From a virus (Duplodnaviria; Heunggongvirae; Uroviricota; Caudoviricetes), in the IMG/VR virus record IMGVR_UViG_2537561935_000012: a DNA stretch of 64,000 nucleotides. The stretch is one strand, 5' to 3'. The translations under genes were made by a program, and so were the position numbers. The notes beneath the pieces are model-generated. The model worked only from the letters and a program-made list of their open reading frames with translations. It searched no databases and was not told the DNA's origin. Shown piece after piece: positions 2,329-58,748 of this stretch. The stretch's first letter is position 1; each line of letters starts with the position of its first letter.

Positions 2329-2357
2329 CAGGGGGATCTTTTCACCGCTGGTACCGA

Positions 2358-2387
2358 GTTCTCTTAAACCAAGGTTTAGGATTGAAA
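2358..2387. promoter_or_regulatory. cix-like crossover site for the Cin invertase
   Basis: Sequence TTCTCTTAAACCAAGGTTTAGGATTGAAAT with the AAACCAAGGTTT core typical of hix/gix/cix sites, overlapping the 3' end of cin and abutting the variable fibre ORF. Confidence 0.5.
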
Positions 2388-2936
2388 TGATGACGCCGGA
2401 AACTTCTTATAAAGAGTGGAAACAGCCACATCATAGATGATTGCAACCTGCTTACGGGGGATGCCCTTCTCCAGCAATCGCCGCATTTGCTGCCATGTTT
2501 CTTCCTGGTATTTAGGCCGACGCCCACCTATTCGACCTTCTGCGCGAGCTGCATCAAGTCCAGCTCGTGTACGTTCAACAATAAGTTCACGTTCCATTTC
2601 TGCCAGCGCCCCCATTACGTGAAAGAAAAAGCGCCCCATTGGTGTACTGGTGTCGATGGAGTCAGTGAGACTCCGGAAGTTAATGCCTCTGTCACGCAGC
2701 TCTTCCACCAGCACAACTAAGTGACGCATGCTGCGCCCAAGACGGTCTAACTTCCATACGACCAGGGGATCACCTCTGGAAAGCATACGGAGTACCTTTT
2801 TTAACCCAGGGCGCTCAGCCTTTTTGCCGCTCGCCTTGTCCTCAAAAATTAGCTCACATCCTGCGCTTTCAAGAGCGTTTCGTTGTAAAGCAGTGTTTTG
2901 TTCATTTGTTGATACGCGTACATAGCCAATTAGCAT
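2376..2936 (-). CDS. cin: Serine-recombinase DNA invertase (Cin/Gin/Hin family)
   Basis: 186 aa; N-terminal MLIGYVRVSTNEQ with catalytic serine at position 10, resolvase domain and C-terminal HTH; ATG start; sits next to tail-fibre variable segment. Confidence 0.9.
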   Translation of the reverse strand: MLIGYVRVSTNEQNTALQRNALESAGCELIFEDKASGKKAERPGLKKVLRMLSRGDPLVVWKLDRLGRSMRHLVVLVEELRDRGINFRSLTDSIDTSTPMGRFFFHVMGALAEMERELIVERTRAGLDAARAEGRIGGRRPKYQEETWQQMRRLLEKGIPRKQVAIIYDVAVSTLYKKFPASSFQS

Positions 2937-2994
2937 ATTTTCTGCTCACCATAGTTATTCATAGCAAGCTGCGGATTTTAATTAACAGAAACCA

Positions 2995-3345
2995 GTGTGT
3001 GTGGAAATCACAAAGTGCATACCGTGCCCCAATGATGTTTTATTGAAAAGCGGGGTTACTTTAATGTTTGATTTAACCATATTTTTTATAACCATCCTTG
3101 GCGGAGTGCATTCGTTTCTGAATGGGGTTCGTGAAAAACGTTACGAAGCGTCATGCAGGCAATTGATGGCCGAGTGTATTGCTGCCGTACTTGCAGGCTT
3201 TATTGGCATGTATTTCGCGGAATATAAGGGCATGGATGAAAGTCTTCAGAATTGCGTGACTATTATTTGCAGCATCAATAACAGGCTCATTCTTGAAAAG
3301 TTACAAAGGATTATCGATTCGTACCTCAATAGAAATGCCTCTTAA
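2995..3345 (+). CDS. Small membrane protein, holin-like (two predicted TM helices)
   Basis: ORF with hydrophobic stretches FDLTIFFITILGGV and CIAAVLAGFIGMYFA upstream of the lysis genes; start codon uncertain. Confidence 0.35.
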   Translation: MCVEITKCIPCPNDVLLKSGVTLMFDLTIFFITILGGVHSFLNGVREKRYEASCRQLMAECIAAVLAGFIGMYFAEYKGMDESLQNCVTIICSINNRLILEKLQRIIDSYLNRNAS

Positions 3346-3412
3346 GCAACAAATGACCGGTTGAGAAGTTACTTTGCATACCATTACCTCCTGACAACGT
3401 AGGAGGGAACTT

Positions 3413-3742
3413 GTGCTTGACACACAGGAATTAGCTCCAGTTGCTATTGCGCTCCTGCTTTCAGTAATTGGTGGGATAGGCACGTTCCTGATGGATGTCC
3501 GAGACGGTCGCCAGTCTGGCAATTTGTTGGGATTGGTTACGGAGATCTTTGTTGCAGTGACAGCTGGCGCGGTGGCGTACCTATTGGGGCAACACGAGGG
3601 CTGGGAGTTATCAATTACGTACTTAATGGTAACGATAGCCAGCAATAACGGTCATGAGGTGATTTCAGGGATGAAACGAGTGAATATCGATAGCATTCTG
3701 AATGTTCTTACAAGTTTGGTGAAAAAGGGAGGCGGGAAATGA
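3413..3742 (+). CDS. lydA: Holin (LydA-like)
   Basis: 109 aa, multiple TM segments, first gene of the late operon ahead of darA; size and position match P1 LydA. Confidence 0.55.
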   Translation: MLDTQELAPVAIALLLSVIGGIGTFLMDVRDGRQSGNLLGLVTEIFVAVTAGAVAYLLGQHEGWELSITYLMVTIASNNGHEVISGMKRVNIDSILNVLTSLVKKGGGK

Positions 3743-4182
3743 TTGGCTGGGGTGTATGCGTTCTTGCGTTAGCCTTAGCCGATCGCTATTTGCTAAAACG
3801 CAAGGACATCACGCATTTAGAACTTGGTGATGTGGAAATTAAACCGGGTTTCATCCGGGTGCCGTTCAAGTACCGGTCTAAATTCCCGTTTTTGCGCGGC
3901 GCAACGGTCAGATATTGGATCCGCGATGTTCAGAAGCCGACGACAGTGATTGAAGGTGAACAACGTTGTCTGACGTCGGCTGAACAGGGCGAAAACAGTG
4001 AATGGTTGTACATACCCACTGAATATATGGGTAAAGGAGAGCGACTGTGGCATTTCAACGTCATGGTTACGCATGGCGACTCGTTCATTAACCCGTTGTA
4101 TCGGATTTTCCCTGTTACTCAGCAAATCCGCAGAAGTTACGTAATAAATCTCGCACAGGATGTGTCAGATGACGAAAAATAA
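3739..4182 (+). CDS. lydB: Antiholin-like lysis regulator (LydB-like)
   Basis: 147 aa, N-terminal TM segment, overlaps lydA stop by 4 nt; synteny with P1 lydB. Confidence 0.5.
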   Translation: MIGWGVCVLALALADRYLLKRKDITHLELGDVEIKPGFIRVPFKYRSKFPFLRGATVRYWIRDVQKPTTVIEGEQRCLTSAEQGENSEWLYIPTEYMGKGERLWHFNVMVTHGDSFINPLYRIFPVTQQIRRSYVINLAQDVSDDEK

Positions 4183-4771
4183 GTATGCAACGGTCGATTT
4201 TGACCAGGTTAATGAAAAGGGGCTGAAATCCCTTATCGCGGCGATCAATAAAACCGGTGTTACGGTAATTGAGGTTGACTCCAGCAACCGCGCAACAACG
4301 AAAGATGGCGTTAAAGTTAAAACCGCAAAGCTGGTTCTTAACGACGGACAAATTCTTGCCATACAGGTAAACGATACTGGCGATATATCGTCTGTGAAAC
4401 TGAATGGAAAAGCTATTCCTAACGCTCAGTCGCCGGATATCAAGACGCTTGGTACCGTCATGGGACAGGCGGCCCGCAAAAACTCCGCAAAATTCCAGAA
4501 ATCACTGATCGCCAAAGCGAAGCGTGTTGCCAATCCGGTAGACAAGAAACCGGCAGTTAAATCCAACTTTCAGCGCCTGCAAGAAGCAAAACAGCGGAAT
4601 GCTCAGGTGGTTGCCGCTTATAAGTCCGCGCAGAATTCGGTGTCTTTCAATCAACAGCAGATCACTGATTTGCGGGCGAAGCTGGATAAGGAGACGGGCC
4701 GACTCAATAACGAAAAGGCACGGAATGGCGAACTCAAACGTCGTCTTAAGCAACTGAAAGCAGGAAATTAA
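4160..4771 (+). CDS. hdf: Hdf-like protein of the darA operon (coiled-coil C-terminus)
   Basis: 203 aa, immediately upstream of darA; assignment by synteny and size. Confidence 0.5.
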   Translation: MCQMTKNKYATVDFDQVNEKGLKSLIAAINKTGVTVIEVDSSNRATTKDGVKVKTAKLVLNDGQILAIQVNDTGDISSVKLNGKAIPNAQSPDIKTLGTVMGQAARKNSAKFQKSLIAKAKRVANPVDKKPAVKSNFQRLQEAKQRNAQVVAAYKSAQNSVSFNQQQITDLRAKLDKETGRLNNEKARNGELKRRLKQLKAGN

Positions 4772-4772
4772 C

Positions 4773-6692
4773 ATGGAACAGTTAAATATCAATAAAGGGG
4801 TGACGATCAAGCCTGGGCTTGACGTGCTTCCCCCGCCAGTGACTGATGATGAATATCGCGCATTAATGGCCGGTGAGGACCGCTATCTGATGACGGAATC
4901 CAACACCCTGGAGGAAATCGAGGCTACGTTCTTCTATGACACGCCGATCCACTGGTGTGCTACGGATTTACTGGAGGCGATTAGTTCTACTCGTTTGCAG
5001 TTACACCGGACCATGCAGGCATTTGTCCGGGCATTGAACCAGAAGCTGAATGGTACCGGAATCTCTGCGGGGAGTGATAAAACGGGGGAGGTGGCCCAGA
5101 GCGGCGCGCGCGCGATCGGCGGTGCTGAAATTGGCCGGGCACGTAACGTTAACGGGCTGCCGGTCCTGCCAGCCATTATTCCGCTCAGTGATGGTCAGAC
5201 TATCAGCATTCTGTTTCATAGCCCGACAGCGGAAAACCGGATCACCAATAGCGATACGCTGGTTGCTTTCCAGTTCTTACTGAATAAAAAAGACGTTACT
5301 CACACCGTTGCTCCGATGAGTGGACGTGATATGACGCTGGCGCAGGTCACCATGAAACTTGCCAACCTTGCAGAGAAAAACTCGGCAAAATTCCAGCGTG
5401 CGCAGAAGAAGAAAAAAGCCCTGGTTGATGAAATAACCCAACTACAGGCTGACAGTGACCAGAAAGAGGATGCCATGAGCGACCTCGCGGATCAGGTGGC
5501 AGCGGTAGAAGGGCAGAAGGTAGATCTGGAGCAGAAAATTAACGCTGTTGCATCGGAAGCGGATTCTCTTTATGAAGAGAATGAGCGTTTGCAGACGGAG
5601 ATTGATCAGCTCAATCGCACAGGTGGGCGCGATACCATTGATCCAGCGGGGATGACTGGTGGGCACTCGCGCGCGCTGACGGATCGCCTTGCCAGTATCA
5701 AAAATCGTATGCATATGAACGGGGAAGTGACGCTCAGTAATGGAGCATCAATGAAGCAATTCATTGAGGACGGCGAAGGGGATATCCAGTTAACCGATTC
5801 GGATGGCAGCGTGTACATGATCAAGGCTAAATCCATACAGGGTGTGGACATGGCAGATGCGATCGGCAAGCTGTTTAAAGCCTATAAAGCGGGTAATGTA
5901 TCGGAATATCTGGTCCAACCAGAAGAACATAAACCGGAAAACGTCGAACCTGAACCAGCGGAGGATACCGGTAGCTCTTCGCCTGAACCAGAAGTCTCTG
6001 TAGGTGCATATCGATATGCCTTGCAAATGCGTCCGGCGGCCCCTGGCGCAATACCTGAAGGTAACAAAGCAATTCTGCCGCGCCCTGATGAAGGTGACCC
6101 GTATTATGAATATGCACGCTACGGCATTGCTACTTACGATACCCCGCTTTCTGATCAGCAAATGAGTGAGTACGACCTGAAGTTATTGCCTCGCGAGGAT
6201 TCTTTCGACTTCCTGGCGAAGACACTTACTAATGGTCCGTTTGGCAAATATGCACAAAAAGCTCTGGATCTGGCCACCAGCTCACCAGACGAGTTCCGCG
6301 TAATGCTGAAAACTCAGTTTCAAAAAACTTTCCCCAATATTGCGTTTCCGGGGGGCGCTGGCACCGAGAAAATGGTGCAGAGCATGATCAATGCATTGCA
6401 GGCCGAAGTCGGTGAGATTACTCAGCCAGAACCTGCCCCGGCACAGCCTGATGAAACGGTTAGCGAAGCAGATGCAGAGGCTAATAAAGCCATTGAATAT
6501 CTCAATAACGTGATGGATATGCAAAGCACTGACATGGCGGAGATCCGTAACGCCCGGGGTAATGTCCGGGAAGCGATTGCAGCCCTTCAGGCTGCCGGGC
6601 GTTTTGAGGAAAACGAAGAGCTGGTTAATGGCGCTGCTCGCCACCTGGCTGATCTGCTGGTAGCAATCCAGAAAGCGGGGGTAGCGGCATGA
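4773..6692 (+). CDS. darA: Defence-against-restriction internal head protein DarA
   Basis: 639 aa, same length as P1 DarA, placed between hdf and ddrA in the late operon; central coiled-coil. Confidence 0.75.
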   Translation: MEQLNINKGVTIKPGLDVLPPPVTDDEYRALMAGEDRYLMTESNTLEEIEATFFYDTPIHWCATDLLEAISSTRLQLHRTMQAFVRALNQKLNGTGISAGSDKTGEVAQSGARAIGGAEIGRARNVNGLPVLPAIIPLSDGQTISILFHSPTAENRITNSDTLVAFQFLLNKKDVTHTVAPMSGRDMTLAQVTMKLANLAEKNSAKFQRAQKKKKALVDEITQLQADSDQKEDAMSDLADQVAAVEGQKVDLEQKINAVASEADSLYEENERLQTEIDQLNRTGGRDTIDPAGMTGGHSRALTDRLASIKNRMHMNGEVTLSNGASMKQFIEDGEGDIQLTDSDGSVYMIKAKSIQGVDMADAIGKLFKAYKAGNVSEYLVQPEEHKPENVEPEPAEDTGSSSPEPEVSVGAYRYALQMRPAAPGAIPEGNKAILPRPDEGDPYYEYARYGIATYDTPLSDQQMSEYDLKLLPREDSFDFLAKTLTNGPFGKYAQKALDLATSSPDEFRVMLKTQFQKTFPNIAFPGGAGTEKMVQSMINALQAEVGEITQPEPAPAQPDETVSEADAEANKAIEYLNNVMDMQSTDMAEIRNARGNVREAIAALQAAGRFEENEELVNGAARHLADLLVAIQKAGVAA

Positions 6693-7054
6693 CACTATCA
6701 GCTATTGAGTTAATGGATCTCAGCGATAAGTTGGATGCTCTGATGTCCAAAGCGGCTACCGCGAGGGGCATGGAGTTGCTGGATATCAGCGATGAAATTG
6801 ACCAGATCATGCAACAGATGGGGTACGGTGTGTCCGGCGGCAGTAGTGGCGAGGAAAAACAACCTGCGGTACATGATGGTGTGCCAAAACTGGTTGCTGA
6901 TTTCCTGGCTGATAAATTCGTCGATCAGAGCACCGATGCATTTATCGGTACCTTGCAGGATTTGAGTCAATATGTTGGCACATACATCGACCTGGACCAG
7001 GTTAAACAGCACACGGCGGCATGGATAGCCGCCAACATTAAAGAGGCAGCATAA
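6689..7054 (+). CDS. ddrA: DdrA-like dar-operon protein
   Basis: 121 aa, overlaps darA stop; synteny. Confidence 0.55.
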   Translation: MTLSAIELMDLSDKLDALMSKAATARGMELLDISDEIDQIMQQMGYGVSGGSSGEEKQPAVHDGVPKLVADFLADKFVDQSTDAFIGTLQDLSQYVGTYIDLDQVKQHTAAWIAANIKEAA

Positions 7055-7066
7055 GGCGTAACAGGG

Positions 7067-10054
7067 ATGAGCTTAAGCGATCAGGTGGGGATGGCCACCA
7101 GCATAGAAACGCTGATCGAGCTGCTAAAAAACCTGCCCGATTACGGGCGGGTTTCGTATGTGGTGACAGCGAAGGGAGACGAGGTAAAAACAGCGTTTGA
7201 TATCGTCGATGCCTCAGCTCTTTTGGTATCCAATACTCTGGACGGGAAAATTAATCCGGACTATCCCCAGGAACTTCAGCCGCGCGACCGGACCCGCGCA
7301 TCCAGTATTCTTCAGGTTAACCAGATATCCAAGGATTTGCGGCCTGCTCAGCTTACCGACTCCGGTTTATCCAGCCATGGAGCGCCGATAATTGGTGAGG
7401 ACAATGCCGTTGAGTCAGGTAATGGACGAACCATGGGGATCATTAAAGCCTATCAGGACGGCAATGCGGATCGGTATCGGGAGTACCTGATTGAACATGC
7501 GAGCGAATTCGGCATACGTCCTGAAAAGGTTGAATCAATGACGGCTCCGGTACTGGTGCGCCGCCGGTTAACTAAGGTTGACCGCGTTCAGTTTGCCAAA
7601 GACTCAAATATTTCTGATCTTCAGGAAATGGCAGCCAGTGAAAAGGCTTTTGTTGATGCCGACAGCATAACACCGGCGATGATGGCGCTTTTTAACCCGT
7701 CAGAAAGCGGAGATCTGCTTAGCCGCAGTAATGACGCGTTTATTCGCGGATTTATGACGCAAGTTGGTGCCACACAGGCGGCTGGACTTGTAACTGAAGA
7801 TGGGCGACCAACACGGCAACTTGTTGACCGGATACAAAACGCGATCTTTGCCAAGGCATATAAGGATGCGCGCCTGGTAAGAATGGTTGCAGAAGAACCT
7901 GATCCGGATATGCGTAATGTTCTGACGGCGCTTAATGCGGCGGCCAATGATTTTGTCCAGATGCAGGCTTTATCAGGAGAAGCGCACAAGCAGGCTGTGA
8001 CAACTATCGTTGATAGCATTGAAACAGCGGATAGCCTCGATAAAAAGGCGCTGGCTGCATTGAAAGATGCGGGAGACCTGGTAAGGCAATCGAAGGAGTC
8101 AGGCCAACATATTACCGATGTTATTGCTCAGGGGGATATGTTCAGCGAAACAGCCCCGGAAGTGAAAGCACTCGCGTTGTTTATCGTCGCGAATAACCGT
8201 AGCGCGAAGCGTATGGCCACCGCCTTTAAGTTGATGGCACAACGTATCAATGATGAGTTACAGCACCAGGGCCAGGCGCTCGGGGATATGTTTGGCGGCG
8301 GTGATGTGTCGTTACAGGATATCCTTCGCCAGGTGTCTCAGGAACTGGAATACGAAGGCATGCAAGGGATATCCGGCGGTCTTTTCGAGTCCGTTTCCGG
8401 CGGTAGTTACAACGGTGTTGCTCCGTATACCAGTTTGCTATTACATCGGGCATCCGGCATCAAAGACATTATTCATCTGATCAGGCTGCTTTCCCGCACA
8501 GATCCCCAGGATGAACAGCTTGTACAAGTGCTTGCGCATTTTGTTCGAATGCCTGTTGCCGACGTAAAAAAATGGTGCCGATTATTCGGTATCAGCAATT
8601 CGTTACTTCGCGGATTGTTAAATCACGCATCCTCCCTTGGGCGCGACGGCTTTGATGAGATAGCGCAGGCGATAAAAAACGGAGATATGCCACCAGCTAT
8701 TGACTGGTTTTCCATTCGCCCAACCAGGGTGAAAGCATTCCTTAGCGCGGCGCATTCGGCATCACCATTGGCAGAAATGGTTCAGAGGTTGTCGCTCATA
8801 TTCACAGACCATACCGCGTTGGGTGATCTGACTCTGGACGAGATGAAAGAAGCCTCCATTCAGTGGGCCGATCAACAAAATGAGGTTAACTCTGACTTCT
8901 TGCCAGTATTCAGGAAGGCCGTTAGTAAAGCTGATGATGCCCGTGGAATTCTGAAGGCATTTAAGGCATTGCAAAGTCAGGTTAATAAACATGTCGGTGA
9001 TATCGATGGGGTAACGGCGGAAGGCAGGGATATCCTTAAAGAGCACGGCATAACGCCAGAGTTTATTGATGAGATCAGGACTGATATGCAGCGTGAGGTC
9101 GTATCGTCCCTGCAAATCGTAGCCATAGCGTTGGCGGATGCTAATCCGAAGTGTGCGGCCATTGTTAACCGGGTTATTGGTGATATTGAAGCATCGGAGG
9201 GCATGGGGGCGCTGAAACTCTTCCTTTCGCGAGCGTTTAATCCTAACGGCAATATTCTCCCTGGCATTATTGGTGAGGCTAAAAAGTATGTCAGTGAAGA
9301 AGAACTTGAGCAGCTTGACCAACTACTTAAGCGATTCTCATATAACCCGCAGACACGCTGGCAAATGAATCAGCGAAGTATGGGTTCGGTCCACGAGAAA
9401 GTGTTATCTGCCATGAACAGTGCGATCGCCAACTCATCCGTATCTGAAGAAAAAGCTCTTGAGTGGGCCGACTCTTTTATCACGGAAGAAGTGGAAGAAG
9501 CCCGCGCTGGACAGAATGGTGGGATAGACCTGCGCAAGGAACTTGCTGATATTTATCGCCTGACCGGCGGTAAAATTTCGACCTTATCAAAGGTGGTTCA
9601 CCACCAGGGAAGGGCATATGCAAATCTTAATGGTGTTGTTGCTGTCAATTTGAACGATGAAAATGCAAGTGCACTGTGGCACGAGCTGGGTCATCATCTT
9701 GAGTACAGTAACCCTGGTTTGTTAGAGAAAGCCCGGTCATTCCTGAAGGCCAATGTTGAAGGGGATAAACCATCTTTCGTTAATATCGGTGGGCGTGGCA
9801 AGCCTGAATGGTGCTTCAGATCTCGATTGAGTAATATTTATATGGCGAAGGTATCCCCGCCAGCCTCAGTAAGTAACACCGGGAAAATTCGGCAGAAATC
9901 CCCGACTATTTCCAAAACGTCAGCAACGGAAGTATTCTCTATGGCTCTTCAGTTGTATCATGACAAAGAGGCCGCTGCCGCATCACTGATGAATGGTGAC
10001 GGATTGCTGGAACTGTTATTAGGTGTGGCAAAGGAGCTAAATAATGCAGATTAA
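7067..10054 (+). CDS. ddrB: DdrB-like large dar-operon protein
   Basis: 995 aa, follows ddrA; synteny and size. Confidence 0.6.
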   Translation: MSLSDQVGMATSIETLIELLKNLPDYGRVSYVVTAKGDEVKTAFDIVDASALLVSNTLDGKINPDYPQELQPRDRTRASSILQVNQISKDLRPAQLTDSGLSSHGAPIIGEDNAVESGNGRTMGIIKAYQDGNADRYREYLIEHASEFGIRPEKVESMTAPVLVRRRLTKVDRVQFAKDSNISDLQEMAASEKAFVDADSITPAMMALFNPSESGDLLSRSNDAFIRGFMTQVGATQAAGLVTEDGRPTRQLVDRIQNAIFAKAYKDARLVRMVAEEPDPDMRNVLTALNAAANDFVQMQALSGEAHKQAVTTIVDSIETADSLDKKALAALKDAGDLVRQSKESGQHITDVIAQGDMFSETAPEVKALALFIVANNRSAKRMATAFKLMAQRINDELQHQGQALGDMFGGGDVSLQDILRQVSQELEYEGMQGISGGLFESVSGGSYNGVAPYTSLLLHRASGIKDIIHLIRLLSRTDPQDEQLVQVLAHFVRMPVADVKKWCRLFGISNSLLRGLLNHASSLGRDGFDEIAQAIKNGDMPPAIDWFSIRPTRVKAFLSAAHSASPLAEMVQRLSLIFTDHTALGDLTLDEMKEASIQWADQQNEVNSDFLPVFRKAVSKADDARGILKAFKALQSQVNKHVGDIDGVTAEGRDILKEHGITPEFIDEIRTDMQREVVSSLQIVAIALADANPKCAAIVNRVIGDIEASEGMGALKLFLSRAFNPNGNILPGIIGEAKKYVSEEELEQLDQLLKRFSYNPQTRWQMNQRSMGSVHEKVLSAMNSAIANSSVSEEKALEWADSFITEEVEEARAGQNGGIDLRKELADIYRLTGGKISTLSKVVHHQGRAYANLNGVVAVNLNDENASALWHELGHHLEYSNPGLLEKARSFLKANVEGDKPSFVNIGGRGKPEWCFRSRLSNIYMAKVSPPASVSNTGKIRQKSPTISKTSATEVFSMALQLYHDKEAAAASLMNGDGLLELLLGVAKELNNAD

Positions 10055-10361
10055 AATCGCAGCGCCATTAGGCGGAGATGCCATTATCGAATTTGATGAT
10101 AATGAAGAAGTTTCCGGGCGTTTAAGCATTATCTCCGGTGACATTACCGAGGACATGATCGCTGAAGCCATAGCTGGGGCAAATCCCAATAGCTATATGG
10201 GATTCGTTAACACCCTTGATGCTCCCGCAAGTGATGTTCTCCGAACGCTGCATCTTTACGCTGGCTGGTTTGTTGATTGGCCAGCAGTAGAGGGTGGCGA
10301 TGAGGACGACGACGATGACGACGATGATTTTGGGGATCATGTAGACCAGATCGTATATTGA
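10044..10361 (+). CDS. iddB: IddB-like small acidic protein (poly-Asp tail)
   Basis: 105 aa with C-terminal DEDDDDDDDD run; last gene of operon before terminator. Confidence 0.45.
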   Translation: MQIKIAAPLGGDAIIEFDDNEEVSGRLSIISGDITEDMIAEAIAGANPNSYMGFVNTLDAPASDVLRTLHLYAGWFVDWPAVEGGDEDDDDDDDDFGDHVDQIVY

Positions 10362-10363
10362 AG

Positions 10364-10392
10364 AAATCCCGCCAATCGGCGGGATTTTTTTT
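10364..10392. terminator. Bidirectional rho-independent terminator
   Basis: Hairpin AAATCCCGCC-AATC-GGCGGGATTT followed by T-run, between convergent iddB (+) and hxr (-). Confidence 0.65.
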
Positions 10393-11179
10393 AATCGCTT
10401 TCCACTTCTTCCGTGGTGTTTTCTTGCAGTTCTGTTAATGCAGCACGACATAGGTTCCGGGCATTGGCTATAGCCACACTTTTGACTTCATCCGTCATCG
10501 TGCAGGTAATGTACTGATCGAGTTCTTCAGCGCGGATGATGCTTTTGCCAATCAGAAACTGTATTTGCCAGAGCAGATCGGCATCCATAATCAGAATTTC
10601 TGCCGGGCCTTCAGGGCCAGCCGGGAAGGAAACATAAGACTGTTTGCCCAGGCCGATAACTCGACAACTTGCTTCAAGAATTGCGCGCTTGAGGTCTGAC
10701 TTTGTAACTGAAACAGGTTGATTTTCACCTGCGATTACGCCGTTGACATGGATGTGGAAAGGCATGTAGCTTGAAATTCGCTCTACTTTCCATACGCCAG
10801 CAAGCGATCCTTCATGCAGCACAATGGGGGTAACCGCGAGTTTCATCTCACCATATAACTGCTGGCAGATGGCTGGATTGCTGAATACATCCAAAGGTTC
10901 ACACTCAAACAGCGGCGCAATCTGCATGAGGTCCATCATGGTCATACCAGGGGTACGAGCAGTAATGAATCTGCGCATGCCAGTATCCATTGTGCGCCAG
11001 ATAGCTACACCATGCTTTTTGCTCACTTCTTCAGTGAAGCCAAGGTGGCACATGATGGTTTTTTCGATAGCCAGATCAGAGATAGAAACCTTTTCGCCAG
11101 GTACACCATCATTATTGATGGTCACTTCGACACTCTGGCCATTACGCAGGCGGTATTGAATTGCTTTAGTATTTTCCAC
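10391..11179 (-). CDS. hxr: Hxr-like protein, function unknown
   Basis: 262 aa ORF with GTG start and upstream GGAG; synteny with P1 hxr. Confidence 0.45.
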   Translation of the reverse strand: MENTKAIQYRLRNGQSVEVTINNDGVPGEKVSISDLAIEKTIMCHLGFTEEVSKKHGVAIWRTMDTGMRRFITARTPGMTMMDLMQIAPLFECEPLDVFSNPAICQQLYGEMKLAVTPIVLHEGSLAGVWKVERISSYMPFHIHVNGVIAGENQPVSVTKSDLKRAILEASCRVIGLGKQSYVSFPAGPEGPAEILIMDADLLWQIQFLIGKSIIRAEELDQYITCTMTDEVKSVAIANARNLCRAALTELQENTTEEVESD

Positions 11180-45945: not shown

Positions 45946-46647
45946 TTATTCTGATTCTCGCTCAAAAAATGAGCTGATAAGGGGAAGCCAATCCTCTGAC
46001 ACTTCGCGAGGTCGCGGTTTGCCGTGGAAAAAGATTATTCGGCAGTCTTTTGGTAATGCCCCATTCCCCCTGGAGTAACGCGCGCTCGCATATTTTGAAC
46101 CAGGTTCCACAACATCGGCCTTGTAACTTACAAACCATCCTGGATACAGATCCTGAAATGCTGGTGTATCATCGCCCATAACCTTTCGTAAGAACCCCTG
46201 GTCACCCCAGCACTCAGTAGTGACACAACGAGAAATCCAACCTTCCGGATCTTGCCAGAATGAACTCCAGATATGCGCTTTAACACTATTTGGTATCCAC
46301 AGGGCACCGCTGCCACGATATTGTGGATGGTAAAAATCCCTAAGCATGGTGAAGCTGGTTGGTGGATGCTCTAGGATTGGGCGTATATCACCGGCAATAA
46401 CCGTGTCCAAATCCAGATAGAACAGATCATCGGTTATATCCGGTCGGAACAACTCGATTTTCGCCCACCAGCCACGGCACTTTTGCCACTGGTTGATCAA
46501 TGGGACAACTTTGACGCCAGGTACATGTAAACGCTTCAGGTCTGTCAGGCAAATAATTTCATAGCCTTTTGGCAGTTGATTAACCAGCCACTGCACATCG
46601 GAAGCGTTATAGTCACCACCAGAGCGAAAAACTAAAGCAATCTTCAT
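45946..46647 (-). CDS. Nucleotide-sugar transferase-like protein (DxD motif)
   Basis: 233 aa; [13 protein letters not shown] region resembles GT-A DxD motif. Confidence 0.35.
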
Positions 46648-47336
46648 GCTGCACCATCACCTTTCACTTTCATCAATGTCAGGTTTCCGCAAAATACGGC
46701 ACCAGTGTCGATATACTGCTGATTCCAGAATGTCTTCGGGCTTTTCACCGGAGTGTGACCAAAGATAAAACGATCTGCGCCCGAAATTTCGCCACCAATA
46801 TCATCCATCGAATCACTGATACGCTCGCGCGCCCAGACAACGTTGAAAAGCGGCACCTCCTTACCGAATTGGTATTCATTATCCGGATAGTCGGCATGGG
46901 CTATAACGATAGTTTCTTGCCCCGTGTTCAACTCAATGATATAGGGCAGACGCTTTACCAGCTCCACCAGCGCCCAGGCTAATATTTCCTGATCAGTGTC
47001 CAGCATGAAGAACCATTGTCCGCCATTCATTAGCCAGTTATTCACGTTGCCATCTGGACTTAACGCATCAATCATCAGCCGCTCATGGTTCCCCATCACT
47101 GCCCTGAACCAGGGCATCTGCAATAGTTCCAGACATTCGACATTTTCAGTACCGCGATCGATAAGGTCGCCGACCGATATCAGTAAATCCTGCGCCGGGT
47201 CAAAATCCACACGATGGAGTTCGGACATCAGTCTGGTGTAGCAACCATGCAGATCACCAACAACCCAGACATTCCTGTATTTGGTACCGTCGATACGGTG
47301 ATAAATTGTGGGTGCCATCATGTATTCTTCAGCCAT
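46644..47336 (-). CDS. ppp: Ser/Thr protein phosphatase (lambda-PPase / calcineurin-like)
   Basis: 230 aa with metallophosphatase motifs GDLHG, GDLIDRG, GNHE. Confidence 0.85.
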
Positions 47337-47944
47337 TCTTTAAGAGTCATCTGCGGAATACCTCCCATTTTCCCGCATGAAACAACGTCAATCTGTTCAC
47401 GCGCAGACTGGAATAACAAAGGCAGGTGACTTAGATTTTTTGGCGTGCTGCCGGAGTGAACGCGTAGTTCTTGCGTAGCGTCAACGCCCACCAGAGCTAC
47501 ATGTTTGAATCCGATATGGAAAGCCAGGGTCAGAGCACCATATGCACTATTGCCGCTGGCAATTTCATTCTCATCTTCGCAAAGGCCGAAATGTGCGGAC
47601 CAGCGCCACGCCCACCACTCGGGAGAATTCGTATTTTTTGGCTCCATGCCGCGTTCAGCCACACGACGGAAGCACAGAACGCCATCTCTGACTTCACGTT
47701 CTTTAACATCGGGTAGTGCCATGCAATAACAAACACCACGGCGACGGCGGCCACGACCAACGCGCCGCATATTGTCTGGCGATGGATCAAGTGTGAAAAA
47801 ATAAGAAGCGCGGTTCAGCCAGTCGATGGCCCCATTGACCGCTATAATCGGCACTCCGCGCGGCGCAACAAAGTTTGCGGCGCTTGGGCCACTGCCGACG
47901 ATAATAACGCGATCACTGCCTCTAAATTTATTCTTGGGAAACAT
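47318..47944 (-). CDS. GSGPS-motif Rossmann-like protein, paralogue A (DUF115/MptE-like or CstII-like transferase fold)
   Basis: 208 aa; [14 protein letters not shown] ... IIAVNGA pattern. Confidence 0.4.
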
Positions 47945-48504
47945 TGAATTGCACTGCTCCTACTTGCATTCAAAATATGTAAATCTGCGTGTTTTTTGCG
48001 GGTATCCAGGAACTGCTGTTGCCATTTTGAAATAGACACCTGCGTTGGATTCCGTAGTGCTTGAGGGTGCGCGCCATGCCAATGAAGGCCGTTTTGCAGA
48101 GAACAGTCATAGCCGACTAATACCACTACTTCAGCCCCTGATTCAGCAGCCAGACTGATAGCCTGCGCGCCGCTATTTACCCCTTCCGCCGGTCCACAAT
48201 ATCTCCTGTACTCCAACGAAAATGATTTCGCCGCCGCCAGGTTGGCTGTCACTTTGCGGAATCTCCCTCCCGGTATGGTGGATCCGTATTGCTTCCACCA
48301 TGACAAATCACCGGCGTATAAGGCATAAATGTCATCGAACATCTGCCAGGAATTGTTAACCGCGATGATTGAACAGCCAGTTTTTTCTATAGCAGCACAG
48401 TCCTCACGAGTGAGTGACGGTCCGCTACCGACACAAAAAACAGTCCTAGTCGCCCTGGGTGGTATGTTCATTCTCAGCTGCAAATTCAGCCTCCAGGCGA
48501 GCAT
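47842..48504 (-). CDS. GSGPS-motif Rossmann-like protein, paralogue B
   Basis: 220 aa; TVFCVGSGPSLTRED ... IIAVNNSW pattern parallel to paralogue A; track ORFs overlap by about 100 nt so true start is probably internal. Confidence 0.4.
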   Translation of the reverse strand: MLAWRLNLQLRMNIPPRATRTVFCVGSGPSLTREDCAAIEKTGCSIIAVNNSWQMFDDIYALYAGDLSWWKQYGSTIPGGRFRKVTANLAAAKSFSLEYRRYCGPAEGVNSGAQAISLAAESGAEVVVLVGYDCSLQNGLHWHGAHPQALRNPTQVSISKWQQQFLDTRKKHADLHILNASRSSAIQCFPRINLEAVIALLSSAVAQAPQTLLRRAECRL

Positions 48505-49568: not shown

Positions 49569-49640
49569 CTTTTATTGAGTTAAATATTCAACAAATGACT
49601 AGCGGTAGAATCACCATCATCTATTTCTGGCAGGCTGACT

Positions 49641-51245: not shown

Positions 51246-54392
<3,147 letters not shown>

Positions 54393-54393
54393 G

Positions 54394-54419
54394 AAAAGCC
54401 CGGCGTTCGGGCTTTTCTG
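54394..54419. terminator. Bidirectional rho-independent terminator
   Basis: GAAAAGCCCG-GCGTT-CGGGCTTTTCTGTT between convergent operons. Confidence 0.65.
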
Positions 54420-54438
54420 TTATGACGGGTTCAATTTT

Positions 54439-55437
54439 TTATCCGTTACCGCGCGACGGTTTCTGCGTGATAAACGTCTCAAGCATCTTTTCCGCAATTG
54501 CCGACCAGGTGTGACACTGGACCTTTTCAGCATTTTTCACGCGATCAACGCGAGCAATAACCTCATCCCAATCAATCCGCGACTTGATAACCATATGGTT
54601 CACCAAAGCCAGGCGATCTGGCGGAAGGCAATCGGGAGGCGTTAATACCAACGCCCCGCACATTGCCGCCTCAAGAACAGTTAATCCAAGGCTTTCGGGA
54701 TGCGTAACGATAAAAACGTCACTCTTACGCAATTCAGCTGCAAATTCGGTTGCTGGCACCGGCGTCCGCCTGTATGGAGTTACCGAAATATTCCCCGGAT
54801 CAATGGTAACCAATCCGTCATCAGTCAACGTTCTGGCCTCATACGGAACGGTCAGACGCTGAAGGTTCATAAGGATACTTAAGGAGTGATCAAAACCACT
54901 AACATCAAATGCAGCGTGGTCTACAAAAATACGCAGAACATCGTCCGTTTTGGTTTCCAGATGGAACAGCTCCTGATTCGCTGCCCATCCAACATGTTTG
55001 TTAAAGCGATTATGACGTTCTAACCGACCGGGATTATCCAGGTACCGCCAGGTATCATCGCGGACAGTAAAAGTAATATCGACTGGTGCCGAATCCAGCA
55101 TAGAACCGTCATATACCTGGGCTACCCATCCAGAGAATCGGCGACACAGTTGCATGCCTATTTCCCTGGGTACCGTAGTAAAATACCTCAATCCTGGTGC
55201 CAAAATGGCCTTCGCAGAACATGCTGTCGCAGCAGTCAACACAGCTTCAACATAATCCTCGGGGCTTTCGACGCCAGGGGAATATGGACGATGGTATTGC
55301 AATGTAACCCCTGCCTCACTAAAGGCGCAGGCCAGGTTATAAGACCACATTTCCGTATATGTTTTCACATCACTGATGGCTGCAAATTTTCGCCCAATGA
55401 TCAGGATGTTCATCGGCTTTTCCTCATTCCATTGCAT
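54439..55437 (-). CDS. GT-B fold glycosyltransferase-like protein (downstream of ban)
   Basis: 332 aa; C-terminal VFIVTHPESLGLTVLEAAMCGALVL resembles GT1/GT4 E-x7-E motif. Confidence 0.5.
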   Translation of the reverse strand: MQWNEEKPMNILIIGRKFAAISDVKTYTEMWSYNLACAFSEAGVTLQYHRPYSPGVESPEDYVEAVLTAATACSAKAILAPGLRYFTTVPREIGMQLCRRFSGWVAQVYDGSMLDSAPVDITFTVRDDTWRYLDNPGRLERHNRFNKHVGWAANQELFHLETKTDDVLRIFVDHAAFDVSGFDHSLSILMNLQRLTVPYEARTLTDDGLVTIDPGNISVTPYRRTPVPATEFAAELRKSDVFIVTHPESLGLTVLEAAMCGALVLTPPDCLPPDRLALVNHMVIKSRIDWDEVIARVDRVKNAEKVQCHTWSAIAEKMLETFITQKPSRGNG

Positions 55438-56807
55438 TAATAATCCTCTTGCCAGTCAGCACCGGCATAGTTATCAAACCGTGAGTATTGGCCGTTAAAA
55501 GCCAATCTCACCGTGCCAATTGGGCCATTTCGTTGCTTTCCGATAATTACCTCGGCAATGCCCTTCATTTCGCTATCCGGGTGATAAACTTCGTCGCGAT
55601 ACAGAAACATAATCAGGTCTGCGTCCTGCTCAATTGCTCCTGATTCACGTAAATCTGAATTTACCGGTCGTTTGTCCGCACGCTGTTCAAGCGATCGATT
55701 AAGTTGTGACAATGCCACCACCGGTACTTGTAATTCCTTCGCCAACGCCTTCAGTGAGCGAGAAATCTCGGCAATTTCCAGCGTTCGGTTATCTTGCAGC
55801 TCGGGGACGCGCATAAGTTGCAGGTAGTCGATCATAATCATGCTCAAACCACCATTTTCTTTATAAACACGACGAGCGCGGGAACGTAGCTCTGTCGGCG
55901 TCAGGGCGCTTGAGTCATCAATAAAAATATTCTGCTTGTCCAACAGAATACCCATTGCGCCAGAAACCCGCGCCCAATCCTCGTCGTTAAGTTGCCCTGT
56001 CCGAATACGAGTCTGATCAACGCGTGCAAGAGAAGCCAGTGAGCGCATCATCAGCTGGTGGCTCGGCATCTCAAGGCTAAAAACCAATACGGGCTTATCG
56101 TTACGAACTGCGGCATTTTCGACGAGATTCATCGCAAACGTGGTCTTCCCCATAGATGGGCGGGCGGCGACAATGATGAGATCGGACGGCTGAAGCCCTG
56201 CCGTCTTCTTATTGAGATCGGTAAATCCCGTATCAAGCCCCGTTACACCATCATGTGGTCGCTGAAACAACTCTTCTATGCGAGATACCGTTGCATCGAG
56301 AATGCTGGCGATATCTTTTGGACCACTACCGCTCTTTTGTCGTTTTTCAGCTATTTCAAAAACGCGGCGCTCGGCCATATCCAGCAATTCATTGCTGCCC
56401 CTGCCATCCTGCGCATATCCAGCTTCGGCTATTTCATTTGCGACGGAAATCATTTCACGAACAACCGCGCGTTCACGAACAATATCCGCATAAGCACAAA
56501 TATTTGCCGCGCTGGGCGTGTTCTTTGACATCTCCGCAAGGTACGCAAAACCACCGGCGCGTTCTAATTTACCGTTCTGTTCAAGTGCTTCAGCAAGTGT
56601 TATCAAATCAATCGGTTTGCCATGACTTAATAACCTCTCCATCTCACTGAAAATTTCACGATGAGCACTGGTATAAAAATCATCAGCAACTATACGATCT
56701 GCAACTTCATCCCAGCGGCAGTTATCAAGCATTAAGCCACCAAGTACAGCTTGTTCTGCACTAAGGGAATTTGGCATGGATTCAAGAGGGGATGCAGACA
56801 TTAGCAC
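55437..56807 (-). CDS. ban: DnaB-like replicative helicase (Ban)
   Basis: 456 aa; Walker A ARPSMGKTTFAMN, DnaB N-terminal domain and RecA-like core. Confidence 0.9.
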   Translation of the reverse strand: MLMSASPLESMPNSLSAEQAVLGGLMLDNCRWDEVADRIVADDFYTSAHREIFSEMERLLSHGKPIDLITLAEALEQNGKLERAGGFAYLAEMSKNTPSAANICAYADIVRERAVVREMISVANEIAEAGYAQDGRGSNELLDMAERRVFEIAEKRQKSGSGPKDIASILDATVSRIEELFQRPHDGVTGLDTGFTDLNKKTAGLQPSDLIIVAARPSMGKTTFAMNLVENAAVRNDKPVLVFSLEMPSHQLMMRSLASLARVDQTRIRTGQLNDEDWARVSGAMGILLDKQNIFIDDSSALTPTELRSRARRVYKENGGLSMIMIDYLQLMRVPELQDNRTLEIAEISRSLKALAKELQVPVVALSQLNRSLEQRADKRPVNSDLRESGAIEQDADLIMFLYRDEVYHPDSEMKGIAEVIIGKQRNGPIGTVRLAFNGQYSRFDNYAGADWQEDY

Positions 56808-57087: not shown

Positions 57088-57163
57088 TGGTGGCCCCTAC
57101 CGGACTTGAACCGGTGACCGTGCGATTATGAGTCGCCAGCTCTAACCACTGAGCTAAAGGGCC
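57088..57163 (-). tRNA. tRNA with CAU anticodon (ileX-like tRNA-Ile2 / Met)
   Basis: 76-nt cloverleaf GGCCCTTTAGCTCAGTGGTTAGAGC...CTCATAATCGC...GGTTCAAGTCC...CCA, very similar to E. coli ileX. Confidence 0.8.
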
Positions 57164-58594: not shown

Positions 58595-58670
58595 TGGTGC
58601 CGATTAACGGACTCGAACCGCTGACATCCTGCTTACAAGGCAGGCGCTCTACCAACTGAGCTAAACCGGC
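58595..58670 (-). tRNA. tRNA-Thr (UGU anticodon)
   Basis: 76 nt GCCGGTTTAGCTCAGTTGGTAGAGC...CTTGTAA...GGTTCGAGTCC...CACCA with CCA end. Confidence 0.85.
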
Positions 58671-58672
58671 AT

Positions 58673-58748
58673 TGGCGATGGTGGATGGATTTGAACCATC
58701 GACCCGTTGATTAACAGTCAACCGCTCTAACCGCTGAGCTACACCATC
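58673..58748 (-). tRNA. tRNA-Asn (GUU anticodon)
   Basis: 76 nt GATGGTGTAGCTCAGCGGTTAGAGC...CTGTTAA...GGTTCAAATCC...CGCCA, 2 nt from tRNA-Thr. Confidence 0.85.

What the first reader, a model, noticed from the sequence alone, without database searches (positions are those of the whole stretch)
54439..55437. GT-B-type glycosyltransferase-like gene translationally coupled to the ban helicase
The C-terminal segment VFIVTHPESLGLTVLEAAMCGALVL resembles the E-x7-E motif of GT1/GT4 enzymes. It overlaps the ban stop by 1 nt, suggesting co-expression with the replicative helicase, an unusual pairing. It may correspond to the P1 gene downstream of ban, whose function I do not know.
Basis: inference. 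Interest (0 to 1): 0.4.

Follow-up and report, generated by a model that had tools for sequence, protein, structure and literature searches.

The report
P1 dbn: a phage glycosyltransferase gene
This is the known phage P1 gene dbn, already annotated as a possible glycosyltransferase; it does have that fold, but its natural partners are three other sugar-transferase genes of P1 (pmgO, pmgP, pmgQ), not the helicase gene beside it.

Summary
The ORF at 54439..55437 (- strand, 332 aa) is real. It is phage P1 dbn (99.7% nucleotide identity), which the P1 record already labels "function unknown, possible glycosyltransferase".

- **Fold:** a confident AlphaFold model (pLDDT 89) matches only GT-B / GT4-type enzymes. 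The quoted E-x7-E motif (E248, E256) is conserved across a small, uncharacterised family of about 378 clusters.
- **Pairing with ban:** the 1-nt overlap with the ban stop exists, but the pairing is a P1-lineage accident.
  - Homologues start at Met9.
  - Eight P1-like variants have another ORF between ban and dbn.
  - None of 22 non-P1 loci has a DnaB-type gene nearby.
- **Real partners:** Dbn homologues recur next to, or fused with, homologues of P1 PmgQ (GT8-like) and PmgO/PmgP (Cst-II/GT42-like). In P1 these lie about 6 kb away.
- **Reading:** Dbn is most likely one step of a four-enzyme phage glycan-building module.
- **Acceptor:** unknown. I weakly favour a protein-linked, possibly virion, glycan over LPS or capsule remodelling.
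- **Dispensability:** the gene is non-essential in the laboratory but under purifying selection.

Novelty is low for the finding as written. The module link is a modest new lead.

The parts
54439..55437 (-). dbn ORF as listed (332 aa, from the ATG that overlaps the ban stop). It encodes a GT-B / GT4-like glycosyltransferase.
   Evidence: 99.7% nucleotide identity to P1 dbn (P1_gp078). AlphaFold model, pLDDT 89.4; only GT-B matches.
54439..55413 (-). dbn from the conserved start Met9 (MNILIIG..., 324 aa). This is the likely true coding region.
   Evidence: all homologues start at the equivalent Met; 8 P1-like loci diverge exactly upstream of this ATG. The first 10 residues of the model have a mean pLDDT of 64.
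55421..55425 (-). GAGGA Shine-Dalgarno sequence, 7 nt upstream of the Met9 ATG
   Evidence: Read from the sequence.
54670..54696 (-). Codons for E248-x7-E256, the E-x7-E donor-binding motif. It lies within the family signature T-H-x-E-S-x-G-x4-E.
   Evidence: conservation; alignment with AmGGT, PimA and MshA. AmGGT E223A and E231A lose activity.
54916..54921 (-). Codons for D173-H174, a family-invariant dyad at the end of the first strand of the C-terminal domain
   Evidence: invariant in 16 and in 49 sequences; strand 168-172.
54392..54418 (.). Stable hairpin between the convergent genes 5 and dbn. It is probably a bidirectional terminator ending the ban operon.
   Evidence: dG -17.6 kcal/mol, z = -4.2.
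55437..56807 (-). ban (DnaB-like helicase), the upstream gene of the same operon
47842..48504 (-). pmgO, an MptE-like / Cst-II (GT42)-like putative transferase and a partner of Dbn in other phages
   Evidence: P0091 is a PmgO-Dbn fusion.
47318..47944 (-). pmgP, a paralogue of pmgO (hhalign probability 96.7%). It lies directly next to Dbn in L005 and L167.
45946..46647 (-). pmgQ, a GT8-like GT-A glycosyltransferase with a DxD motif. It is the most constant neighbour of Dbn homologues.
   Evidence: phrog_1962; neighbourhoods; alignment. GT8 hits, E=3e-4.

Best explanation
**What it is.** dbn encodes a soluble, cytoplasmic glycosyltransferase of the GT-B fold, closest to the retaining GT4 type. 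It has no membrane segment.

**How it probably works (by analogy, not tested).** It should bind a nucleotide-sugar in the C-terminal Rossmann domain. By analogy with solved GT4 enzymes, E256 would hold the nucleotide ribose and E248 the sugar. H246 and the D173-H174 dyad are family-specific additions to that site. It would then transfer one sugar to an acceptor held by the acidic N-terminal domain.

**It is not a helicase accessory.** It is one step of a glycan-assembly module whose other members in P1 are:
- PmgO and PmgP, Cst-II/GT42-like enzymes that presumably transfer a CMP-activated ulosonic acid. In E. coli K-12 the available donor would be CMP-Kdo.
- PmgQ, a GT8-like enzyme.

In other phages these genes are contiguous or fused. 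In P1 they are split between two C1-repressed operons on either side of the tail/baseplate operon.

**Expression.** In P1, dbn is the last gene of the ban operon, so it would be expressed early after derepression. Translation most likely starts at Met9.

**Target (inferred, not shown).** I weakly favour a glycan built on a protein, possibly a virion protein (about 0.4), over LPS or capsule (about 0.3).
For: **Fold and motif**
- AlphaFold model: pLDDT 89.4, pTM 0.86.
- All the best PDB matches are GT-B, mostly GT4: sucrose-phosphate synthase, GlgM, MshA, PimB', BshA and GtfC, with best E=3e-9.
- The best viral match is a Tupanvirus glycosyltransferase, TM 0.77-0.81.
- The E-x7-E motif aligns with AmGGT, PimA and MshA. 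The matching AmGGT mutants lose activity.
- Invariant residues are listed.

**Module: neighbourhoods**
- L167: PmgP-Dbn-PmgQ-PmgO.
- L005: PmgO-PmgP-Dbn-PmgQ.
- L004: PmgO-PmgP-GT-A-Dbn-PmgQ.
- L238, L237, L240 and L221 carry 3-4 of the families within about 15 kb.
- Dbn-PmgQ pairs occur in L220, L225, L230 and L232-L236.

**Module: fusions and partner identities**
- Fusions: P0091 is PmgO-like + Dbn, and P0146 is Dbn + GT-A-like.
- P1 homologues sit at window 45946-48504.
- The PmgO/PmgP profile hits Cst-II (E about 7e-4) and Maf. The PmgQ profile hits GT8 enzymes Gat1, GlyE and glycogenin.

**Not tied to ban**
-.

**A functional gene**
- pN/pS is 0.07-0.17 and 121 of 122 copies are intact.

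**Lean towards a protein acceptor**
- In L236, Dbn and PmgQ are inserted between the head-tail adaptor and head-closure genes.
- In L004 and L005 the module lies just upstream of the terminase and head genes.
- The N-terminal domain is acidic and there is no membrane segment.
- The nearest solved relatives by sequence of Dbn and PmgQ include enzymes that extend protein-linked glycans.
Against: - No biochemical or genetic phenotype exists. dbn, pmgO, pmgP and pmgQ are all non-essential by CRISPRi (PMC10695390).
- P7 carries a nonsense codon in dbn.
- The Pfam Glycos_transf_1 score is just below its gathering threshold (25.0 against 26.4 bits).
- Co-occurrence was judged on about 20 loci chosen by availability, not on a census.
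- Bacterial homologues sit in ABC-transporter polysaccharide loci next to a WaaZ-like gene. That points to lipid-linked glycans rather than proteins.
- The links PmgO/PmgP to Cst-II and PmgQ to GT8 rest on weak E-values (1e-3 to 1e-4).
- No glycosylation of P1 virions has been reported, to my knowledge.
- dbn has no late-promoter motif upstream, whereas virion modification would be expected late.
Confidence: 0.6

Rival explanations
1. **Envelope remodelling.** Dbn, with PmgO, PmgP and PmgQ, would modify the host LPS core or another surface polysaccharide during infection, for example by adding Kdo and hexose. This would mask or truncate the P1 receptor (the terminal glucose of the LPS core). 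The result would be less superinfection, or less loss of progeny on cell debris.
For: - Bacterial Dbn homologues lie in ABC-transporter / Poly_export polysaccharide loci, directly after an MptE-like gene that carries a WaaZ_KDO_III Pfam hit: L168 and L171.
- L165 has the same gene order, shown by HMM similarity only.
- PmgO/PmgP resemble Cst-II, a lipo-oligosaccharide sialyltransferase.
- LPS glycosyltransferases such as 5n7z are among the fold matches.
- From own knowledge: P1 adsorbs to LPS core glucose, and WaaZ overexpression truncates the outer core.
Against: - In P1 both operons are C1-repressed, so this would not be classical lysogenic conversion.
- Dbn has an acidic N-terminal domain and no membrane segment, unlike many lipid-directed GT-B enzymes.
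- In several phages the module sits in or next to structural and late operons.
- From own knowledge: no change in the LPS of P1-infected or lysogenic cells is on record.
Confidence: 0.3
2. **Replication-linked enzyme.** Dbn would work with Ban, for example by glycosylating phage DNA (as the T4 glucosyltransferases do) or a replication protein. Its translational coupling to the helicase would then reflect a shared function.
For: - The stop and start codons overlap by 1 nt, and both genes are in the ban operon.
- The T4 DNA glucosyltransferases are also GT-B enzymes (own knowledge).
Against: - No DnaB-type gene lies near any of 22 non-P1 homologues.
- Eight P1-like loci have a 101-aa ORF between ban and dbn.
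- The conserved start is Met9, not the overlapping ATG.
- No T4 DNA glucosyltransferase is among the best 50 PDB matches.
- From own knowledge: P1 DNA is not known to carry glycosylated bases, and P1 has no hydroxymethyl-base pathway.
Confidence: 0.03
3. **Inactive relic or non-enzymatic protein.** The glycosyltransferase fold would be retained, but the protein would no longer catalyse transfer in P1.
For: - The gene is non-essential.
- P7 has a nonsense codon.
- L213 and L219 carry broken copies.
- The Pfam score is below its threshold.
- The usual basic residues at the start of the C-terminal domain appear to be replaced by D-H (the comparison with canonical GT4 is from own knowledge).
Against: - There is strong purifying selection, and 121 of 122 copies are intact.
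- The putative catalytic and donor-binding residues are invariant across a family that diverges to about 25% identity.
- The family repeatedly co-occurs with, and is fused to, other glycosyltransferases.
Confidence: 0.05

Closest known systems
Phage P1 dbn (P1_gp078, YP_006544.1); also called glt in P7 and Dbn / 'glycosyltransferase family 4 protein' in RCS47
   Same: It is the same gene. Nucleotide identity is 99.7% across 54300-55600, with the same neighbours: ban upstream and the convergent baseplate gene 5 downstream. The records already say 'possible glycosyltransferase'.
   Different: Nothing material. The window is a P1-like variant, closest to vB_EcoM-Ro157c2YLVW and JL22 (99.8%). The P7 copy has a stop at codon 31.
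Retaining GT4 glycosyltransferases of the GT-B fold (MshA, PimA/PimB', BshA, GlgM, sucrose-phosphate synthase, AmGGT/Agt)
   Same: - It has the two-Rossmann-domain fold (Foldseek E down to 3e-9, TM 0.6-0.67).
- It has the E-x7-E motif in the same helix.
- At about 320 aa it is similar in size to the small GT-B enzymes GtfC, Gtf3 and AmGGT.
   Different: - Sequence similarity is confined to about 40 residues around E-x7-E. The family profile finds only 378 cluster representatives among 1.84 billion and does not reach generic GT4 proteins.
- It has a family-specific His two residues before the first Glu (T-H-x-E-S), and an invariant D-H where I expect the G-R/K of GT4 (own knowledge; not structurally verified).
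- Donor, acceptor and stereochemistry are unknown.
Virion-glycosylation glycosyltransferase genes of mycobacteriophages, and the fibril-glycosylation clusters of giant viruses (own knowledge)
   Same: - Several virus-encoded cytoplasmic glycosyltransferases are clustered together.
- In some genomes they sit inside the structural operon (L236).
- The best viral fold match is a Tupanvirus glycosyltransferase.
   Different: - No glycan has been shown on P1 or on any Dbn-carrying phage.
- The P1 genes lie in early, C1-controlled operons.
- The enzymes are different: a GT42-like pair, one GT8-like and one GT4-like.
LOS/LPS core extension sets (Campylobacter Cst-II with other LOS glycosyltransferases; E. 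coli WaaZ)
   Same: A Cst-II/MptE-like transferase is combined with small GT-A and GT-B enzymes. Bacterial Dbn homologues lie next to WaaZ-like genes in polysaccharide loci.
   Different: - The phage genes have no detectable membrane or lipid-binding features.
- hhalign probability between PmgP and the WaaZ-like family is only 73%.
- No LPS phenotype is known.

Membership tests
Phage P1 dbn orthologue | Near-identical sequence and the same position between ban and baseplate gene 5 | tested here: met
   99.7% identity to NC_005856 over 1301 nt, with the features dbn, ban and 5 under the match.
GT-B fold glycosyltransferase | Two Rossmann-like alpha/beta domains with a C-terminal helix crossing back | tested here: met
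   pLDDT 89.4, with alternating strands and helices in two blocks; 85 PDB matches at E<=1e-3; the best 50 listed are all GT-B-fold enzymes (glycosyltransferases plus UDP-GlcNAc 2-epimerases); 116 viral matches at E<=1e-3; the named ones among the top 50 are nearly all glycosyltransferases.
GT4 / Pfam Glycos_transf_1 (PF00534) | E-x7-E motif with both glutamates conserved | tested here: met
   E248 and E256 are invariant in A1. In A2, E256 is invariant and E248 is conserved in >=90%. The motif aligns with those of AmGGT, PimA and MshA.
GT4 / Pfam Glycos_transf_1 (PF00534) | Score at or above Pfam's gathering threshold | tested here: not met
   25.0 bits against a cut-off of 26.4, covering residues 229-315 only. 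Some relatives pass (P0098 29.9, P0150 28.4). NCBI nevertheless names the cluster 'glycosyltransferase family 4 protein'.
GT4 / Pfam Glycos_transf_1 (PF00534) | Basic residues (Arg/Lys) after the first strand of the C-terminal domain that bind the donor diphosphate | tested here: inconclusive
   The family has an invariant D173-H174 at the end of strand 168-172. R224, R237 and R275 are conserved and could serve instead.
GT4 / Pfam Glycos_transf_1 (PF00534) | Retaining transfer from a nucleotide-sugar | not testable with these tools
   This needs an enzyme assay.
Four-gene phage glycosylation module (PmgO, PmgP, PmgQ, Dbn families); proposed here, not an established family | Recurrent co-location or fusion of the four families in unrelated phages | tested here: met
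   Neighbourhoods. Fusions. This is a sample of about 20 loci, not a census.
T4-type DNA glucosyltransferases | Closest structural similarity to T4 AGT/BGT, together with a hydroxymethyl-base pathway in the genome | tested here: not met
   Neither enzyme is among the best 50 PDB matches. The lack of such a pathway in P1 is from own knowledge.
Gtr-type O-antigen seroconversion (GtrA, GtrB, GtrV) | Integral-membrane proteins using a bactoprenol-linked sugar, encoded as a three-gene cassette expressed in the lysogen | tested here: not met
   Dbn has no membrane segment (highest 19-residue hydropathy 1.53, and that segment is the buried E-x7-E helix). It has the GT-B fold. It lies in a C1-repressed operon.
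Known anti-phage defence proteins (PADLOC) | Match to any PADLOC model | tested here: not met
   no match.

The most novel reading that the evidence does not exclude
P1, and many unrelated tailed phages of Gram-negative bacteria (lambdoid phages, phage-plasmids, marine T4-like phages, siphoviruses), would share a conserved cytoplasmic glycosylation pathway. It would consist of two Cst-II/GT42-like enzymes, one GT8-like enzyme and the GT4-like Dbn. The pathway would decorate a phage protein, most plausibly a virion component, with a short glycan containing a Kdo- or sialic-acid-like sugar. That would be the first virion glycosylation system described for a classical coliphage.
Probability: 0.2. 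Interest if true: 0.7.

Novelty: already known. Interest (0 to 1): 0.3.

Why it matters
As written, the finding re-derives an annotation that has been in the P1 record since the genome was published, so on its own it matters little.

The useful outcome is a reframing. dbn should be studied together with pmgO, pmgP and pmgQ, which are still labelled 'putative morphogenetic function', and not together with ban. Four of P1's uncharacterised genes then collapse into one testable pathway that is shared with many other phages.

If that pathway glycosylates virions or remodels the receptor-bearing LPS, it would bear on P1 host range and transduction efficiency, and on the immunogenicity of phage particles. 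P1 genetics makes the test easy.

Tried and rejected
**Searches that led nowhere**
- Two scans of viral contigs with family alignments returned almost only P1-like copies, so they gave no new contexts.
- Two genome-collection attempts failed because the alignments had no stretch conserved enough. The scan that did run gave only 3 loci.
- The metagenome scan was also dominated by P1-like contigs.
- A hand-made degenerate DNA pattern for the T-H-x-E-S-V-G variant of the motif was what finally recovered diverse viral loci.
- Literature searches found no functional study. The terms tried were dbn/P1, hdmD, pmgO/P/Q, WaaZ + phage, P1 + glycosyltransferase + LPS, DUF115 + phage, virion glycosylation, and pmgR/S/T.
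- The P1 genome paper (PMC523184) is not held in the library.
- PADLOC gave no match. NCBIfam gave only insignificant hits. A single-sequence search of the PDB found nothing significant.

**Ideas considered and rejected**
- A functional link to the helicase, or DNA glycosylation (see rival explanations).
- Gtr-type seroconversion.
- A late promoter for dbn: the LP26-type motif has no match upstream of dbn.
- A sigma-70 promoter and terminator scan of the region found no more sites than chance.
- The 'hdmD' label on pmgQ in phage SJ46 could not be traced to any source.

**Deliberately not done**
- Profile-to-PDB hits and PHROG labels already place them.
Full report
**Observation.** The window holds a 332-aa ORF on the - strand at 54439..55437. 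Its ATG (55437-55435) shares one base with the TAA stop of the upstream DnaB-like ORF at 55437..56807, giving TAATG on the coding strand.

**Start codon.** Two in-frame ATGs are candidates:
- Met1 has a GAGGA 6 nt upstream, inside the last codons of ban.
- Met9 (55413-55411) has a GAGGA 7 nt upstream.

All homologues outside the P1 lineage begin at the position of Met9, with MK(I/L)LIIG. I compared the junction in 83 P1-like copies.
- 75 keep both ATGs.
- In 8, the sequence upstream of Met9 is unrelated. It ends a 101-aa ORF inserted between ban and dbn, whose stop overlaps the Met9 ATG.

Met9 is thus the conserved start. The eight extra residues are a P1-lineage extension of uncertain use, and they have low confidence in the model.

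**Identity.** The region is 99.7% identical to phage P1 and 99.8% identical to two P1-like phages. In the P1 record the ORF is dbn, "function unknown, possible glycosyltransferase". P7 calls it glt, "putative glycosyltransferase". The RefSeq copy of RCS47 calls it "glycosyltransferase family 4 protein".

**Operon structure in P1.**
- dbn is the last gene of the C1-controlled ban operon: Pban, two tRNAs, tciABC, a third tRNA, ban, dbn.
- A hairpin of -17.6 kcal/mol at 54392-54418 separates it from the convergent baseplate gene 5.
- No P1 late-promoter motif lies upstream of dbn.

**Dispensability and selection.**
- CRISPRi mapping scored dbn non-essential (PMC10695390).
- The P7 copy has a stop at codon 31, which explains its shorter annotation.
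- Among 122 other P1-like copies, 121 are intact.
- pN/pS against the window allele is 0.07-0.17, so the gene is maintained by selection in nature.

**What the protein is.**
- Pfam gives only a sub-threshold Glycos_transf_1 match: 25.0 bits against a cut-off of 26.4, E=1.5e-5, residues 229-315.
- PHROG 2518 has no known function, and PADLOC gives no match.
- An AlphaFold model built on 16 homologues is confident (pLDDT 89.4, pTM 0.86) and shows two alpha/beta domains.
- Foldseek against the PDB returns only GT-B enzymes, led by retaining GT4 members: sucrose-phosphate synthase, GlgM, MshA, tetrahydrobiopterin glucosyltransferase, PimB', BshA and GtfC. Best E is 3e-9 and TM is 0.6-0.67.
- Against viral models the best match is a 315-aa Tupanvirus glycosyltransferase, with TM 0.77-0.81.

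**The family.**
- A profile search of 1.84 billion cluster representatives finds only 378 relatives at E<=1e-3, mostly 300-335 aa. This is a small, separate family, not a run-of-the-mill GT4.
- Across 49 diverse members the invariant residues are D173, H174, H246, E256 and G261 (P1 numbering). E248, S249, G251 and T245 are nearly invariant.
- The family signature is T-H-x-E-S-x-G-x4-E.
- The profile aligns this stretch with the E-x7-E motifs of AmGGT (8xsg, E=1.4e-4), PimA and MshA. In AmGGT the corresponding E223A and E231A mutants lose activity. That enzyme is metal-independent and uses UDP-Glc (PMC12159676).
- The N-terminal domain is acidic (pI 6.1) and there is no membrane segment.

**Surroundings elsewhere.** None of 22 loci from outside the P1 lineage has a DnaB-type gene within the fetched flanks. 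The same partner families recur instead.

| Locus or group | Type | Arrangement |
|---|---|---|
| L004 | lambda-like contig | PmgO-like, PmgP-like, small GT-A-like gene, Dbn, PmgQ-like; all directly upstream of the terminase and head genes |
| L005 | lambda-like contig | PmgO-like, PmgP-like, Dbn, PmgQ-like; same position |
| L167 | other phage | PmgP, Dbn, PmgQ, PmgO |
| L003, L006 | phage-plasmids | PmgO-PmgP-PmgQ together, about 5 kb from Dbn |
| L238 | large phage | Dbn, PmgQ-like, two FkbM-type methyltransferases, a PmgP-like gene |
| L237, L240 | Serratia plymuthica chromosome (L237) and a related locus (L240) | PmgQ and PmgP between holin and endolysin; Dbn and PmgO a few kb away |
| L225, L232-L235 | marine viral contigs that I judge T4-like from UvsX/UvsW-like ORF sequences (not tested) | Dbn directly followed by one or two PmgQ-like genes |
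| L236 | siphovirus contig | Dbn and a PmgQ-like gene between the head-tail adaptor and head-closure genes |
| L168 (Colwellia), L165 (Brucella pseudogrignonensis), L171/L214 | bacterial loci (L168 and L165 named by their source records); L168 carries ABC-transporter and Poly_export capsule-export genes | Dbn follows an MptE-like gene, which carries a WaaZ_KDO_III Pfam hit in L168 and L171, and two unknown 320-aa genes |

Gene fusions say the same:
- P0091 is PmgO-like + Dbn.
- P0146 is Dbn + the GT-A-like domain.
- P0098 is two Dbn domains.
- P0109 is Dbn + a methyltransferase.

**The P1 partners.**
- pmgO (47842..48504), pmgP (47318..47944) and pmgQ (45946..46647) are on the - strand. The ppp phosphatase gene lies between pmgP and pmgQ.
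- They sit in a second C1-controlled operon, on the other side of the tail/baseplate operon from dbn.
- All three are labelled "putative morphogenetic function" and are non-essential.
- PmgO and PmgP are paralogues (hhalign probability 96.7%). They have weak MptE-like Pfam matches.
- As a joint profile they hit the Campylobacter Cst-II sialyltransferase (GT42; E about 7e-4, from the GxGPS motif to the xxG(I/V)D strand). They also hit 5mu5, which I believe is a Maf flagellin glycosyltransferase (identity from memory, not checked), and Cst-I.
- PmgQ has an invariant DxD. As a profile it hits GT8 enzymes: the Skp1 galactosyltransferase Gat1 (E=3e-4), GlyE and glycogenin.

**Mechanism.**
- Shown: the fold, the conserved donor-site motif, purifying selection, the operon position, and the recurrent association with the three other families.
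- Inferred: Dbn is a soluble nucleotide-sugar transferase that adds one residue in a glycan built jointly with PmgO/PmgP and PmgQ. PmgO/PmgP would probably transfer a CMP-ulosonic acid, which in E. coli K-12 would be CMP-Kdo. PmgQ would be a retaining hexosyltransferase.

**Acceptor (open).**

For a protein, possibly virion, acceptor:
- the module sits inside or beside structural or late genes in L236, L004, L005, L237 and L240;
- Dbn has soluble, acidic character;
- the nearest solved relatives by sequence of Dbn (AmGGT/Agt), and most of those of PmgQ (Gat1, GlyE, glycogenin), extend protein-linked glycans.

For LPS or capsule:
- the bacterial homologues lie in polysaccharide-export loci;
- PmgO/PmgP resemble Cst-II and WaaZ;
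- the P1 receptor is LPS core glucose (own knowledge).

I put these two readings at about 0.4 and 0.3. A replication or DNA-modification role tied to ban is essentially excluded by the comparative data.

**Comparison and novelty.** The gene and the glycosyltransferase guess are already in the public annotation, so the finding as written is already known.

The family meets the GT-B fold and E-x7-E criteria but misses the Pfam threshold. It also has its own signature: His at -2 of the first Glu, and a D-H dyad where I expect the basic residues of GT4. I could not verify that last point structurally. No member has been characterised in the literature I could search.

What may be new is the link between dbn and pmgO/P/Q as a dispersed copy of a module that is contiguous in other phages. 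It rests on about 20 loci and needs a census and an experiment.

**Verdict.** The glycosyltransferase interpretation is supported but not new. The significance attached to the helicase pairing is not supported. Interest is 0.3.

Noticed in passing
L002 (phage P7, AF503408), dbn/glt codon 31: The P7 copy has a nonsense codon at W31. This explains why P7 'glt' is annotated as only 287 aa, with a 135-nt gap after ban. It may be a laboratory-strain pseudogene or a sequencing error.
   Followed up: partly
L079 9699-10004 (also seen in L080-L087): Eight P1-like viral contigs carry a 101-aa ORF of unknown function between ban and dbn. Its stop overlaps the Met9 ATG of dbn. L207, L208, L211 and L216 also match dbn only from residue 9; their junction was not inspected.
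   Followed up: partly
window 45946-48504 (- strand): P1 pmgO, pmgP and pmgQ, annotated 'putative morphogenetic function', look like glycosyltransferases. PmgO and PmgP are a Cst-II/GT42-like paralogous pair, and PmgQ is GT8-like. The lambda-type Ser/Thr phosphatase gene ppp is inserted between pmgP and pmgQ.
   Followed up: yes
L219 9878-10513 and 17578-20133: An 81.7-kb P1-like metagenome contig keeps pmgO, pmgP and pmgQ intact. It has only frameshifted fragments of a divergent (about 55% identical) dbn allele.
   Followed up: no
L237 (Serratia plymuthica chromosome) 1037-11005; L240: All four module families are scattered over about 10-13 kb around a fimbrial usher operon and a prophage lysis cassette. 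PmgQ and PmgP lie between the holin and the endolysin genes.
   Followed up: partly
L236 7010-11959: In a GC-rich siphovirus contig, Dbn, a PmgQ-like gene and an unknown 276-aa gene are inserted between the head-tail adaptor (Ad1) and head-closure (Hc1) genes of the structural operon.
   Followed up: partly
P0091, P0146, P0098, P0109, and about ten 520-555-aa family members: The Dbn domain is fused to a PmgO-like domain, a GT-A-like domain, a second Dbn domain or a SAM methyltransferase. About ten more members carry an unidentified C-terminal domain of roughly 200 aa.
   Followed up: partly
L232 5543-6367; L234 1821-2597: In marine viral contigs, a cytidylyl/adenylyltransferase-like gene (PHROG 'heptose 1-phosphate adenyltransferase') and methyltransferase-like genes sit next to the Dbn-PmgQ pair. 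I judge the contigs T4-like, and the neighbouring genes methyltransferase-like, from ORF sequences only. This suggests on-board nucleotide-sugar synthesis.
   Followed up: no
window 57088-57163 (- strand): ARAGORN calls this tRNA Met(CAT), while the P1 record annotates it as tRNA-Ile2 (CAT, presumably read through lysidine). tRNA-Thr and tRNA-Asn lie at 58595-58748.
   Followed up: no
window 49593-49611 (+ strand): This is the only exact match in the window to the P1 late-promoter LP26 pattern (AAATGACTA, 4 nt, TAGAAT). It lies between the divergent pmgL and gene 26 operons.
   Followed up: no
L168, L171, L165 (genes just upstream of the WaaZ-like gene): Two conserved proteins of about 320 aa with no Pfam match (called X319 and X320 here) always precede the WaaZ-like-Dbn pair in the bacterial polysaccharide loci.
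   Followed up: no
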